DNA of 64,000 bases from Escherichia coli. Lineage in GTDB: Bacteria; Pseudomonadota; Gammaproteobacteria; Enterobacterales; Enterobacteriaceae. The position numbers were made by a program. The first letter of the stretch is position 1. Every line of letters begins with the position of its first letter. The DNA lies in NCBI RefSeq assembly GCF_041248615.1, contig NZ_CP158426.1. One strand, 5' to 3'. This document shows, one piece after another, positions 7,501 through 13,087 of the stretch.

Positions 7501-10500
7501 CGGCAGGTACGGCAGCGGGCTTTACCGGGCTGTTTGGTTACCTGGGCGGTTCGGTGGCGGCGAGCGCGATTGTTGGCTACACCGTGGACTTCTTCGGCTG
7601 GGATGGCGGCTTTATGGTAATGATTGGCGGCAGCATTCTCGCGGTTATCTTGTTGATTGTTGTGATGATTGGCGAAAAACGTCGCCATCAGGAATTACTG
7701 CAAAAACGCAACGGAGGCTAATGGCATGAAATTGACGCTAAAAAACCTTAGCATGGCGATCATGATGAGTGGAATGATCATGGGAAGCAGTGCAATGGCG
7801 GCGGATAGCAACGAAAAAATAGTCATCGCCCATCGCGGTGCCAGTGGATATTTGCCGGAGCATACGCTGCCAGCAAAAGCGATGGCGTATGCGCAGGGAG
7901 CGGATTATCTGGAACAAGATTTGGTGATGACCAAAGACGACCATCTGGTTGTCCTGCATGACCATTATCTCGATCGTGTTACTGATGTTGCCGATCGTTT
8001 CCCGGATCGGGCGCGCAAAGACGGTCGTTACTACGCGATAGATTTCACGCTCGATGAAATTAAGTCACTGAAATTTACCGAAGGTTTCGATATTGAAAAC
8101 GGTAAGAAAGTACAGACTTATCCGGGGCGTTTCCCGATGGGTAAGTCCGACTTCCGGGTGCACACCTTTGAAGAAGAGATTGAATTTGTTCAGGGGTTAA
8201 ATCACTCTACCGGGAAAAATATCGGTATCTATCCAGAAATTAAAGCGCCGTGGTTCCATCATCAGGAAGGGAAGGATATTGCGGTAAAAACGCTGGAAGT
8301 GCTGAAGAAATATGGTTACACCGGTAAGGACGATAAAGTTTATTTGCAATGTTTTGATGCTGATGAGCTGAAGCGTATTAAGAAAGAGCTGGAACCTAAA
8401 ATGGGCATGGATCTCAATCTGGTACAGCTGATTGCCTATACCGACTGGAATGAAACGCAGCAGAAACAGCCGGACGGAAGCTGGGTTAATTACAACTACG
8501 ACTGGATGTTTAAGCCGGGAGCCATGAAACAGGTGGCGGAATATGCAGATGGTATTGGTCCGGATTATCATATGTTGATTGAGGAGACATCGCAGCCAGG
8601 TAATATCAAACTCACTGGCATGGTGCAAGATGCTCAGCAGAATAAACTGGTAGTACATCCTTACACCGTGCGGTCAGATAAGCTGCCTGAATACACTACT
8701 GATGTGAATCAGTTATATGATGCTCTGTATAACAAAGCGGGTGTAAATGGGCTGTTTACTGATTTCCCTGATAAGGCAGTAAAATTCCTAAATAAAGAGT
8801 AATGCTACTGCAGGATGGCGTTCATGCGCCATCCTGTCTCATATCAAATTTTCCACTCTCCACTAATTGTTCTGTGCACATTTGTAGTAAAAACAGTGGA
8901 CTGCCTTCTACCGGCTTTTCTTTAGCCAGCAACGAAATCTGTCGATAGAAGGTTGGTTCGAGAGGAACGGAACACAATTCATCTGCAATGGTTTTCAGCG
9001 TTAACTCTGGTAATAAGGCGATGCCTAATCCCTGTCGAATAAAACTGATCGCTGTATCCGGGTGATTAAATTCATATTTTATCTGTGGGGTAATATTCTT
9101 TTCTTTAAATAGTGCCATAATGCTTAATTCATAGCGTCCTTTACTAATAATTAATGGTTCACCCATTAACTCTTCCACTGTAATAGTGCTGTTTTTTGCC
9201 AGAGCATGGTTGGGCGGTAACACTACGGTGAATTTATCCTGATAAATGGGCACGGAGTACATTCCGCTCACCGGAAAATGAACAAAACCGGCATCAATGG
9301 ATTCATTCTGAAGGGAATCAATAATCGCTGTGCTATTTTCCTCAAAAGGAATAATTTTTATATTCGGATGATGAATTTCAAAGTAGCGAATCACAGCCGG
9401 TAAGATACAGGCGCAGACGCTGGGGAAACAACCAAGTCTCAGCGTTCTTTGAGGGTTCTGCTTTTCCTGCTCGGCTATCTCTTTTACTGCGTTCACTTCC
9501 CGATTAATGGCGCGCAGATGATGCACAATGCGATGACCTGCTGCGGTCAGTTGTATAGCTTTACGGCGATCGCGTAACAGTATACTCACGCCAAGTTCTT
9601 GTTCGAGGGCAGCAATTGCCTGACTTACCGCCGACTGCGTCATGAACAATCGCTTGCTGGCTTCAGTAAAGCCACCGTAATCCAGCACGGCGAGTAAAGA
9701 ATTTATTTGAGTAAGAGTCATTAGAGTTTGCTAATCAATAATATTAAAACGATTAATTTCTCTAATAGCGTGCCGCCATTTATACTTCTGTTCTGCAAAG
9801 TACATCACAATTTGACGCAACCGCAGTAACGGGAGTGTTGTCTGCGTGCGTCATCCTGACAGGCGGTAGGGTATGAAAGAGAAGTTATGGACGAAGGATT
9901 TTTGGGCAATAACCATCATCAGCTTTATTATTTTCTTCGTCTTTTATGTTTTACTAACATTGTTGCCAATTTATATCTCAGACCGCTTGCATGCCTCTCC
10001 TGATAAAGCAGGTTTGTTGGTGACTTTATTTTTAATTGCCGCCATTGTTATTCGCCCCTTTGCCGGGCAATGGGTAGGTAAATATTCGAATAAAACTATT
10101 CTGGGGCTCTCTTCTCTGGCCTTTTTGGTGGTCACTGCGCTGTATCCTTTTTGCCACTCAATTGAATCACTGCTTTTTATTCGGGTGCTTCATGGTATTA
10201 CCTTCGGGGTTATCACTACGGTAAAAGGAACGATTTCCGCGCGGCTGATCCCGGCCTCCCGACGTGGGGAGGGCATCAGTTTTTTCTCTCTGGCAATGGG
10301 GCTGGCAATGGTGGTCGGGCCGTGGATTGGTCTGAATATGGCGCGCTGGGAAGCCTTTAATCTGGCTTTCTGGCTATGCACCGGCGTGGCAGCAGTGGGG
10401 ATTATTCTGTCGCTGATTATGACAGTGCCGCCGGTTATCAGCCATGCTGATGGTTCAACGCCGAAAATGGGCTTCGCCGCCATGTTCGATCGCGCGGCGT

Positions 10501-13087
10501 TGCCATTTGCGATGGTCACCTTTTTTATGACCTTTTCGTATGCCGGGGTTTCTGCTTTTCTGGCGCTTTATGCACGCGAACTTAACCTGATGTCGGCAGC
10601 CAGTAATTTCCTGCTTTGCTACGCTATCTTCCTGATGATCTGCCGTACCTTTACCGGCAATGTCTGCGACAAAAAAGGACCGAAATATGTGGTTTACCCT
10701 TGCCTTGTGTTCTTTACGGTAGGACTGGTGGTTCTCGGCTACACCCAGGGAAGCATAATGATGGTTGTTTCTGGCGCATTGATTGGTATCGGGTATGGTT
10801 CCGTGACGCCAGTTTTTCAGACGCAGATTATCAGTTCAGTGGAACCGCATAAAATCGGTGTCGCAAACTCCCTCTTCTTCAATGCGATGGATGCAGGCCT
10901 GGCGCTGGGAGCCTGTGTGATGGGGATGATGGTTGCACATACTGGCTACCGAATGATTTATCTGCTGGGTGCACTATTAGTGGTAGTGGCTGGTGGAGTC
11001 TATGCGCTGCAAATGAAGGGTAAAAGCGGTGTCGCGCTAGTAGTGGCAAAAGAAATTCATTAATACGACACGTTTCATTAAGATTTTTCGCAGGTAACCA
11101 CCTATAGTCATTGTCGTTAATAAAAAATGACAGGCGATAGGGTATGGCAGTTTCAGCAAAGCACGACGAATTTAATCACTGGTGGGCAACAGAGGGCGAC
11201 TGGGTTGAAGAGCCTAACTATCGCCGTAATGGTATGAGCGGGGTGCAATGCGTCGAGCGCAACGGCAAAAAGCTATATGTAAAGCGCATGACGCATCATC
11301 TGTTTCATTCCGTACGTTATCCGTTCGGCCGACCAACGATTGTCCGTGAGGTTGCGGTAATTAAAGAACTGGAACGGGCTGGTGTCATCGTGCCGAAGAT
11401 TGTTTTTGGTGAAGCGGTGAAAATTGAGGGGGAATGGCGCGCGTTGCTGGTGACTGAAGATATGGCGGGGTTCATCAGCATTGCTGACTGGTATGCCCGG
11501 CATGCAGTAACGCCCTATTCTGACGAAGTACGGCAAGCCATGTTGAAAGCAGTGGCGCTGGCGTTTAAGAAAATGCATAGCGTTAATCGTCAGCATGGCT
11601 GTTGCTATGTTCGCCATATCTATGTGAAAACAGAAGGTAAGGCAGAAGCTGGATTTCTTGATCTGGAGAAAAGTCGTCGCCGCTTGCGTCGCGATAAAGC
11701 GATTAATCATGACTTCCGCCAGCTGGAAAAATATCTGGAGCCGATCCCCAAAGCGGACTGGGAGCAGGTGAAAGCGTATTACTACGCCATGTAATCGTTG
11801 TAGGCCAGATAATACGCGTAATGAACTGCACCCCAAATGTTGGACATAATCTGACATCTGAAGGTGCAGTTTATGAAACATTCATTTGAAGTAAAACTTG
11901 CCGCTGTAAATCATTACCTGGCTGGTCATGCAGGCATCATTTCTACGGCAAAACTCTTTCAACTTTCTCACACCAGCCTCTCACACTGGATTAATCTTTT
12001 TCTTCTTCACGGTCCTCGGGCACTGGATTGCAGACACAAGCGTAGCTATTCTCCTGAAGATAAACTTTGCGTGGTTCTTTATGCTCTCGGGCATTCTGAG
12101 TCTCTACCCCGGGTAGCTGCCCGGTTTAACATTCCCAGCCACAACACGGTTAAAAACTGGATAAAAGGCTACCGCAAATCTGGTAATGAGGCCTTTATCA
12201 GGCGCAGGAAGGAGAAAAGCATGACCCGTTCTGATGATACCCATGAAAACGAGGCAAACATGACGCCGGAAGAGATGAAGAATGAGCTGCGTTATCTTCG
12301 CGCAGAAAATGCATATCTGAAAGCCATGCAGGAGCATCTCCTGGAAAAAAAGCGCCAGGAGCTGGAGAAAAAACGAAAGTCATCCGGAGCCTGAGGTGCG
12401 GACACTGCCAGTCTGACCTGTTAAAGGCTGCAGGGCTGGCCAGAAGCACGCTGTACTACCAGCTGTCACTGCAGAAGGCTAAGGACAAGTATGCTGATGT
12501 GAAACAGCTCATAGCCTCCATCTTCCATGAACACCGGGGATGTTATGGGTACCGGCGGATCCATTGTGAGCTTCAGAAAAGAGGTCTTAAGTTCAGTGGC
12601 AAAACAGTGCGAAAACTGATGCAACAGCTCGGCCTGAAGTCTCCTGTGCGCCTGAAGAAATACCGGTCTTACCGGGGAAATATGGGACTCGCTGCAGAAA
12701 ATATCCTTCAGCGGCAGTTCAAAGCGGAAGCTCCCTGTGAGAAATGGGTGACAGATATCACCGAATTCAGGGCTGGCGGACAAAAACTGTACCTGTCTCC
12801 GATACTTGATTTGTTTAACGGGGAAATCGTGGCGTGGGAAACGGCCTGCAGGCCTACAGAGGAGCTGGTGAAGCGCATGTTAAATAAGGGGCTGGAAAGC
12901 CTTGCTGAAGGGGAGAAACCGCTGCTCCACAGTGATCAAGGATGGCATTACCGGATAAAAAGTTATCAGTCCGCCCTGGCGGACAGAGGGTTAGTGCAGA
13001 GCATGTCGCGCAAGGGCAACTGCCTTGATAATGCGGTAATGGAGAACTTCTTTGGTCACCTGAAAGAAGAAATGTACTATCGCCGGG

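What the first reader, a model, noticed from the sequence alone, without database searches (positions are those of the whole stretch)
8822..11063. Intact LysR regulator plus divergent MFS transporter where K-12 (as I recall) has only a yfaH pseudogene
A full-length 299-aa LysR regulator and a 396-aa MFS transporter are transcribed divergently from a 151-bp region with a T-N11-A-type box, the classic arrangement of a LysR regulator controlling its neighbour. Both genes are visibly AT-richer than flanking glpQ and inaA, consistent with a horizontally acquired or variably retained accessory module. The substrate is unknown.
Basis: partly seen in the sequence, partly recalled or inferred. Interest (0 to 1): 0.45.

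Follow-up and report, generated by a model that had tools for sequence, protein, structure and literature searches.

The report
Old regulator-transporter pair, mostly lost
This is an intact LysR-type regulator next to a membrane transporter it most likely controls, an old enterobacterial gene pair that about four in five complete E. coli genomes, including K-12, have deleted or inactivated; it is ordinary and its substrate is unknown.

Summary
A 299-aa LysR-family regulator (8822-9721, minus strand) and a 396-aa MFS transporter (9873-11063, plus strand) diverge from a 151-bp spacer. K-12 keeps only the yfaH fragment, after a 1,879-bp deletion at an 8-bp microhomology.

The horizontal-acquisition idea is not supported. 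The same pair sits between the glp genes and yfaE-nrdBA in Salmonella, Citrobacter, Klebsiella (oxytoca group), Kluyvera and other genera. Both genes are under strong purifying selection (dN/dS 0.03-0.12). In E. coli the pair is being lost by several routes. Only 1,216 of 5,426 complete genomes keep at least 80% of the segment K-12 lacks.

Only the regulator gene is clearly AT-rich. The transporter gene is not AT-richer than its flanks.

Alignment of the spacer from 27 taxa shows three conserved ATTA(A/G)/(C/T)TAAT dyad sites and a TATACT -10-like element at fixed spacing. This gives the usual LysR layout, with sites near -65 and -43 of a predicted transporter promoter.

The transporter most resembles 12-helix drug/sugar efflux carriers such as NorA and SotB. 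No subfamily model reaches its cut-off and I found no paper on its function.

Verdict: an uncharacterised member of a well-known kind of module, of low interest.

The parts
8822..9721 (-). LysR-type transcriptional regulator, 299 aa. This is the full-length form of the gene whose 3' fragment is K-12 yfaH.
   Evidence: The ORF is. Pfam HTH_1 covers aa 3-63 and LysR_substrate covers aa 88-267. NCBIfam PRK09729, the 68-aa K-12 YfaH model, matches aa 226-291. Orthologues of 292 aa occur in Salmonella, Klebsiella and Kluyvera.
8849..8852 (.). T-run of 4 bases where the 292-aa alleles have 5. The resulting frameshift at the penultimate codon replaces the final Ile and adds 7 residues.
   Evidence: Comparison with O157:H7, MS14387, strain 2900 and EC31 (T5, 292 aa) and with EC332, ETEC4069 and ST2747 (T4, 299 aa).
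8811..8836 (.). Perfect 10-bp stem with a 6-nt loop between the convergent glpQ and LysR genes. It is probably a bidirectional terminator. The stop codon of the extended LysR lies in its loop.
   Evidence: Read directly from the sequence: CAGGATGGCG-TTCATG-CGCCATCCTG.
9720..9735 (.). Box 1, ATTAG-N6-CTAAT. Predicted regulator recognition site, centred about -65 from the predicted MFS transcription start. It overlaps the LysR start codon.
   Evidence: The half-sites are conserved in 23-27 of 27 taxa while the spacer varies. It occurs once in the window against 0.05 expected.
9743..9759 (.). Box 2, ATTAAAACGATTAATTT. It contains ATTAA-N5-TTAAT, a T-N11-A dyad. Predicted activation site, centred about -43.
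   Evidence: Sixteen of its 17 positions are conserved in at least 23 of 27 taxa, the exception being C at 9750 in 19. It occurs once in the window against 0.08 expected.
9762..9766 (.). Box 3, a CTAAT half-site. With ATTAA at 9752-9756 it forms ATTAA-N5-CTAAT, which overlaps the expected -35 region.
   Evidence: Conserved in 24-27 of 27 taxa.
9781..9786 (+). TATACT, the predicted -10 hexamer of the MFS promoter. The predicted transcription start is near 9793.
   Evidence: A2 and T6 are each kept in 26 of 27 taxa, and the distance to the boxes is fixed. The consensus scan, which requires a match in both hexamers, found no promoter in the spacer, so there is no good -35. The transcription start itself is inferred.
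9873..11063 (+). MFS transporter, 396 aa, of the 12-helix DHA1-like efflux type.
   Evidence: MFS_1 at E 1.6e-58. The closest solved structures are NorA (E 6.5e-13) and SotB. The best NCBIfam matches, PRK05122 and PRK12382, fall below their cut-offs. Orthologues of 396 aa at 79-97% identity occur in many genera.
9078..9085 (.). Left copy of the 8-bp microhomology TTTATCTG at the K-12-type deletion junction.
10957..10964 (.). Right copy of the 8-bp microhomology TTTATCTG. K-12 lacks the 1,879 bp between the two copies.

Best explanation
This is a self-contained two-gene module.

The LysR-type regulator most likely binds the conserved dyads in the 151-bp spacer: box 1 near -65, and boxes 2 and 3 near -43 to -30. 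From there it probably damps its own transcription. When it binds a small-molecule inducer, it probably activates the weak-(-35) promoter of the divergent MFS gene.

The MFS protein is most likely a proton-coupled exporter of that compound or a related one. The substrate is unknown.

The pair is an ancestral resident of the glp/nrd region of Enterobacteriaceae. It is kept by purifying selection across genera but is dispensable in E. coli, where it has been lost repeatedly. K-12 yfaH is what remains after one such deletion.

Shown: gene integrity, domain content, synteny, selection, the frequency and routes of loss, and the conserved operator-like sites and their spacing. Inferred: binding, activation, the transcription start, the direction of transport and the substrate.
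For: - Domains.
- Divergent pairing in 24 of 24 enterobacterial loci, plus Neobacillus and Desulfosporosinus.
- Conserved flanks (glpA or glpQ on one side, yfaE on the other) in 23 of 24 loci.
- dN/dS of 0.03-0.12 for both genes.
- Ungapped footprint in 27 taxa, CATtAG-N6-CTAAT..ATTAAaAcGATTAATTT..CTAAT..TAtacT.
- Each dyad is unique in the 64-kb window.
- The nearest solved relatives are the efflux carriers NorA and SotB.
- Motif A-like GNVCDKKGPK at aa 262-271 and a GPWIG core in predicted helix 5.
- Loss in E. coli: 1,232 of 5,426 genomes hold any part of the K-12-deleted segment and 4,251 hold the 3' remnant.
- Distinct routes of loss.
Against: - There are no expression, binding or transport data here, and none in the searched literature.
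- The promoter scan finds no sigma-70 consensus promoter in the spacer.
- The motif C match is partial and one of the twelve helices is weak by hydropathy.
- No NCBIfam subfamily model reaches its cut-off, so the direction of transport and the substrate rest on resemblance only.
- Neighbouring genes give no metabolic hint in any taxon.
Confidence: 0.6

Rival explanations
1. The regulatory logic is the same, but the MFS protein is an importer. It would take up a nutrient that the LysR regulator senses, rather than export anything.
For: MFS_1 proteins include symporters. Weak matches to aromatic-acid, galactonate and sialate symporter models appear. Motif C is only partial. The PunR-PunC pair of E. 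coli, known to me from memory, is a LysR regulator activating a divergent MFS nucleoside transporter.
Against: The best-scoring relatives are all exporters: NorA, SotB, CntE and PRK05122/PRK12382. No catabolic enzyme is linked to the pair in any genus.
Confidence: 0.2
2. One reading: the pair is an accessory module horizontally acquired by some E. coli strains, and K-12 represents the ancestral empty state.
For: The regulator gene has low GC3 of 0.407. Only about 22% of complete E. coli genomes carry the pair. About 100 genomes carry a foreign-looking 1.3-kb replacement tract.
Against: K-12 retains fragments of both genes, joined at a microhomology. The pair is syntenic in Salmonella, Citrobacter, Klebsiella, Kluyvera and other genera. 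The window-type alleles lie at a congeneric distance from other Escherichia species, dS 0.64-0.79, not at saturation. GC of the MFS gene equals that of its flanks.
Confidence: 0.04
3. The adjacency is historical only. The regulator's main targets lie elsewhere, for example the neighbouring glp genes, and the MFS gene is controlled independently.
For: LysR regulators often have additional targets. The LysR gene lies next to glpQ or glpA in every enterobacterial locus except Leminorella.
Against: The pairing persists where the flanks differ, in Leminorella, Neobacillus and Desulfosporosinus. The conserved dyads sit at fixed distance from a conserved -10-like element that faces the MFS gene. glpQ and LysR are convergent and separated by a terminator-like hairpin.
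Confidence: 0.1

Closest known systems
E. coli K-12 yfaH pseudogene (b2238; NCBIfam PRK09729)
   Same: It is the same gene. The K-12 fragment aligns with aa 225-292 of the window's regulator, and the window protein reaches the PRK09729 cut-off, 140.8 against 139 bits.
   Different: K-12 lacks the first ~211 codons of the regulator, the whole spacer and the first ~363 codons of the MFS gene, 1,879 bp in all. The window copy is complete.
Classical LysR regulators with a divergent target, such as CysB, BenM, CynR and OxyR
   Same: Winged-helix plus LysR_substrate architecture. Sequence matches are at E 1e-15 to 1e-22 to the solved structures of CysB, BenM and OxyR and 5e-34 to the CynR model. The layout is also shared: a divergent target gene, a T-N11-A dyad near -65 and a second site near the -35 region.
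   Different: No NCBIfam equivalog cut-off is met for any named regulator. The inducer is unknown. The half-site ATTA(A/G) is specific to this group.
PunR (YdhB) with PunC (YdhC), and AaeR with AaeXAB, of E. coli (from my own knowledge, not tested here)
   Same: A LysR regulator transcribed divergently from, and activating, a membrane transporter gene.
   Different: The proteins are different. No sequence comparison was made here, and the substrates (purine nucleosides; aromatic carboxylic acids) cannot be transferred.
NorA of Staphylococcus aureus and SotB of E. coli (12-helix MFS efflux carriers)
   Same: They are the best matches among solved structures: NorA at E 6.5e-13 over aa 11-192, and SotB at E 2.4e-4 over aa 13-369.
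   Different: The matches are weak. The substrates (quinolones; sugars) cannot be transferred.
YhhS/YfcJ-type MFS (NCBIfam PRK05122 and PRK12382)
   Same: These are the best-scoring NCBIfam models, and they match full length.
   Different: The scores are 109.6 and 84.7 bits against cut-offs of 374 and 364. The protein is not a member.

Membership tests
LysR-type transcriptional regulators | N-terminal winged helix-turn-helix (Pfam HTH_1) | tested here: met
   PF00126, 66.1 bits against a cut-off of 26.6, aa 3-63.
LysR-type transcriptional regulators | C-terminal LysR substrate-binding domain, with a total length of about 300 aa | tested here: met
   PF03466, 127.6 bits against a cut-off of 28, aa 88-267. 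The protein is 299 aa and its orthologues are 292 aa.
LysR-type transcriptional regulators | Divergent target gene with a T-N11-A dyad in the shared spacer | tested here: met
   ATTAA-N5-TTAAT at 9743-9757 and ATTAG-N6-CTAAT at 9720-9735. Both are conserved in 27 taxa and unique in the window.
LysR-type transcriptional regulators | Inducer-dependent activation of the target and negative autoregulation | not testable with these tools
   This needs reporter fusions, gel-shift or footprint assays.
MFS, 12-helix drug:H+ antiporter (DHA1-like) type | MFS_1 fold | tested here: met
   PF07690, 198.7 bits against a cut-off of 33.4.
MFS, 12-helix drug:H+ antiporter (DHA1-like) type | Twelve transmembrane helices | tested here: inconclusive
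   A crude hydropathy scan gives 11 clear segments. A weaker amphipathic stretch around aa 330-350 would be the twelfth.
MFS, 12-helix drug:H+ antiporter (DHA1-like) type | Motif A (G-x3-D-R/K-x-G-R-R/K) in a cytoplasmic loop | tested here: met
   GNVCDKKGPK at aa 262-271, in the loop between helices 8 and 9. The counterpart between helices 2 and 3, GQWVGKYSNK, is degenerate.
MFS, 12-helix drug:H+ antiporter (DHA1-like) type | Antiporter motif C (G-x3-G-P-x2-G-G) in helix 5 | tested here: inconclusive
   Only the core GPWIG is present, at aa 149-153. The full pattern is not matched.
MFS, 12-helix drug:H+ antiporter (DHA1-like) type | Proton-coupled efflux of a substrate | not testable with these tools
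   This needs transport or resistance assays.
YhhS/YfcJ subfamily (NF003477, NF009048) | Score at or above NCBI's curated cut-off | tested here: not met
   109.6 against 374 bits, and 84.7 against 364 bits.

The most novel reading that the evidence does not exclude
The most novel reading concerns a regulator swap. About 100 E. coli genomes, including O145 strains, have had a 1.3-kb tract replaced by a version as divergent as that of another genus. The tract covers the regulator, its operator and the 5' end of the MFS gene. It is 76% identical in nucleotides with dS above 2.5, while the flanks are 97-100% identical. This could be a regulator swap that changes which signal drives a conserved exporter.

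Combined with the repeated independent losses in other lineages, it could mean the module is under lineage-specific or conflicting selection in E. coli, for instance export of a host- or diet-derived compound, rather than simply neutral decay.
Probability: 0.1. Interest if true: 0.4.

Novelty: new member of a known kind. Interest (0 to 1): 0.17.

Why it matters
The finding explains the K-12 pseudogene yfaH. It is the stump of a regulator-transporter pair that is conserved across Enterobacteriaceae and still intact in lineages such as O157:H7.

It also supplies a concrete and testable operator and promoter model for an uncharacterised LysR/MFS pair.

Beyond that it is one more orphan regulator-exporter module. 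Nothing about it challenges current understanding.

Tried and rejected
- Literature. Searches for 'yfaH' (15 papers by the title and abstract listing, none opened, none evidently about its function) and for the Salmonella locus tags I recalled, STM2280 and STM2281 (no papers), gave nothing.
- RNA families. An Rfam scan of 8700-11200 at E up to 1 found only a spurious eukaryotic lncRNA match at E 0.47. There is no known riboswitch or leader.
- Promoters. The consensus promoter scan found nothing in the spacer. The promoter model rests on conservation instead.
- Substrate hints from neighbours. In enterobacteria the neighbours are always glp and nrd genes. In Firmicutes they are unrelated: radical SAM, dienelactone hydrolase, Usp, SnoaL, SDR and response regulators.
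- Firmicute origin. The next-closest MFS homologues found were in Desulfosporosinus and Bacillus at 55%, and the regulator's best NCBIfam matches are Gram-positive regulators. However, the locus scan depends on two exact peptide patterns, so this is not a fair survey and I make no claim.
- GC as evidence of acquisition. Rejected for the MFS gene and weak for the regulator, because neighbouring glpQ is also low.
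Full report
**1. What is in the sequence**

The ORF list shows a 299-aa ORF on the minus strand at 8822-9721 and a 396-aa ORF on the plus strand at 9873-11063.

- Pfam assigns HTH_1 (aa 3-63) and LysR_substrate (aa 88-267) to the first ORF, and MFS_1 (E 1.6e-58) to the second.
- The gene order is glpA(-), glpT, glpQ, LysR(-), MFS, inaA, an insertion sequence, yfaE(-), nrdB(-).
- Window 8600-11300 is 100% identical to E. coli strain ST2747, where RefSeq calls the two genes 'LysR family transcriptional regulator' and 'MFS transporter'.

**2. K-12 and the rest of E. 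coli**

- In MG1655 the inaA-glpQ interval holds only the 207-bp pseudogene yfaH.
- Aligning that interval to the window shows that K-12 lacks window ~9086-10964, which is 1,879 bp. The junction falls in an 8-bp repeat, TTTATCTG, at 9078-9085 and 10957-10964.
- That deletion removed the first ~211 codons of the regulator, the whole spacer and the first ~363 codons of the transporter.
- The NCBIfam model for the 68-aa K-12 YfaH matches aa 226-291 of the window's regulator above its cut-off. The proteins align over aa 225-292.
- Among 5,426 complete E. coli genomes, 1,232 hold any part of the K-12-deleted segment and 1,216 hold at least 80% of it.
- 4,251 genomes hold the regulator's 3' remnant. 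So roughly 3,000 genomes are of the K-12 type and roughly 1,175 have nothing.

Loss has happened by several routes:

| Route | Example | Evidence |
|---|---|---|
| 1,879-bp deletion at a microhomology | K-12 | |
| Window 8803-11044 replaced by 103 unrelated bp | strain 317 | |
| Truncated regulator plus an internal stop in the transporter | strain 042 | |
| IS1-associated deletion | GDSC2227PM | |

Of nine carrier genomes inspected, eight are annotated with both genes intact: ST2747, EC31, O145 RM12522-C8, O157:H7 7636, EC332, MS14387, ETEC4069 and strain 2900. The ninth, strain 042, has both genes inactivated.

**3. Ancestral, not acquired**

- Proteins about 85% identical to the transporter occur in Salmonella, Klebsiella (oxytoca group) and Kluyvera.
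- In those genomes the regulator (292 aa) and transporter (396 aa) lie divergently between the glp genes and yfaE-nrdB-nrdA.
- A scan of one genome per species found the pair in other Escherichia species, E. whittamii, Salmonella, several Citrobacter, Kluyvera, Klebsiella spallanzanii, Pseudocitrobacter, Superficieibacter, Phytobacter, Pluralibacter and Leminorella. Transporter identity was 79-97%.
- The regulator is the divergent neighbour in all 24 enterobacterial loci.
- yfaE flanks one side, and glpA or glpQ the other, in 23 of the 24. The exception is Leminorella.
- inaA lies between the transporter and yfaE only in Escherichia and Pseudocitrobacter. At this position inaA is the lineage-restricted gene.
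- Both genes are under strong purifying selection, with dN/dS of 0.03-0.12 in all comparisons.
- The window-type alleles lie at dS 0.64-0.79 from E. whittamii and Escherichia sp. E1V33. That is a congeneric distance, far short of the saturation seen against Salmonella and the O145-type allele, as expected for descent within the genus.

**4. Base composition**

| Gene | GC | GC3 |
|---|---|---|
| glpQ | 45.3% | 0.493 |
| LysR | 43.3% | 0.407 |
| MFS | 48.5% | 0.531 |
| inaA | 50.2% | 0.525 |

The spacer is 42.4% GC and the whole window 51.7%. Only the regulator is distinctly AT-rich. The transporter is not AT-richer than its flanks.

**5. The spacer**

The first ~70 nt next to the regulator's start codon align without gaps in 27 taxa. 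The conservation profile reads CATtAG-N6-CTAAT (9719-9735), ATTAAaAcGATTAATTT (9743-9759), CTAAT (9762-9766) and TAtacT (9781-9786). The bases between these blocks vary freely.

- The half-site is ATTA(A/G), or its complement (C/T)TAAT.
- Box 2 contains ATTAA-N5-TTAAT, a true T-N11-A dyad.
- Box 2 and box 1 each occur once in the 64-kb window, against 0.08 and 0.05 expected.
- In TATACT the two positions most critical for a -10 hexamer, A2 and T6, are each kept in 26 of 27 taxa on the plus strand. This points to a promoter facing the transporter.
- With a start near 9793, box 1 is centred near -65 and box 2 near -43, and box 3 overlaps the -35 region. The consensus scan, which requires a match in both hexamers, found no promoter there, so a good -35 is lacking.
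- This is the textbook layout of a LysR-activated promoter: a recognition site near -65 and an activation site near -35. That comparison rests on established knowledge of the family.
- The start site and the binding are inferred, not shown.
- The rest of the spacer varies in length, giving total spacer lengths of 151-218 bp. That fits a leader region.
- No Rfam family matches the region.

**6. The transporter**

- The closest solved structures are the efflux carriers NorA (E 6.5e-13) and SotB.
- The best NCBIfam models are PRK05122 and PRK12382 (YhhS/YfcJ type), followed by the staphylopine exporter CntE. All fall far below their cut-offs.
- Hydropathy gives eleven clear helices and one weak one.
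- A motif-A-like GNVCDKKGPK lies at aa 262-271, and a GPWIG core lies in predicted helix 5.
- I read this as a 12-helix proton-coupled exporter, with moderate confidence. The substrate is unknown.
- Neighbouring genes give no hint in any genus.

**7. The regulator**

- Its best matches among solved structures are CysB, BenM and OxyR, at E 1e-15 to 1e-22.
- No NCBIfam equivalog of a named regulator reaches its cut-off.
- The 299-aa length comes from a T-run at 8849-8852 that is one base shorter than in the 292-aa alleles. The last residue is replaced and seven are added.
- The extended ORF ends in the loop of the hairpin at 8811-8836, between glpQ and the regulator. The domains are untouched.

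**8. Literature**

- The 15 papers that contain 'yfaH' gave no sign, from their titles and abstracts, of dealing with its function; I did not open them.
- The Salmonella locus tags I recalled returned no papers.

**9. Verdict**

The 'regulator controls its neighbour' reading is well supported by comparative evidence. The 'variably retained' reading is right, and 'horizontally acquired' is not supported.

The thing itself is an uncharacterised member of a very common kind of module. Its main value is that it explains yfaH and gives a testable operator model. Interest is low.

Noticed in passing
window 11822-13253: An IS3-family insertion sequence of about 1,432 bp sits in a REP-like palindrome between inaA and yfaE. 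It has orfA at 11864-12394 and orfB at 12499-13221, and a 4-bp overlap (GTAA) at the junction. It is absent from the otherwise near-identical strain ST2747. From memory, its size and its REP target fit IS1397; this was not verified.
   Followed up: partly
L010 2100-3420 (E. coli O145 RM12522-C8), corresponding to window 8726-10005: About 100 complete E. coli genomes carry a mosaic allele. A 1.3-kb tract covering the regulator, the operator and the first ~130 bp of the transporter is about 76% identical to the window, with dS above 2.5, while the flanks are 97-100% identical. The donor is not among the species sampled. The operator boxes are kept.
   Followed up: partly
window 11144-11794 (inaA): inaA lies between the transporter and yfaE only in Escherichia species and Pseudocitrobacter. 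It is missing from that position in Salmonella, Citrobacter, Klebsiella and Kluyvera.
   Followed up: partly
L011 924-1994 and L058 1305-2375: Some E. coli strains (EC31, 042) have an extra ~1.7 kb between glpQ and the regulator. It carries a frameshifted 'hypothetical protein' gene that is absent from the window. It was not identified.
   Followed up: no
L036, L040-L042 (Desulfosporosinus, Neobacillus): Distant homologues of the transporter (34-56% identity) in Firmicutes also have a divergent LysR neighbour at 25-37% identity. The pairing may therefore predate its presence in Enterobacteriaceae.
   Followed up: partly
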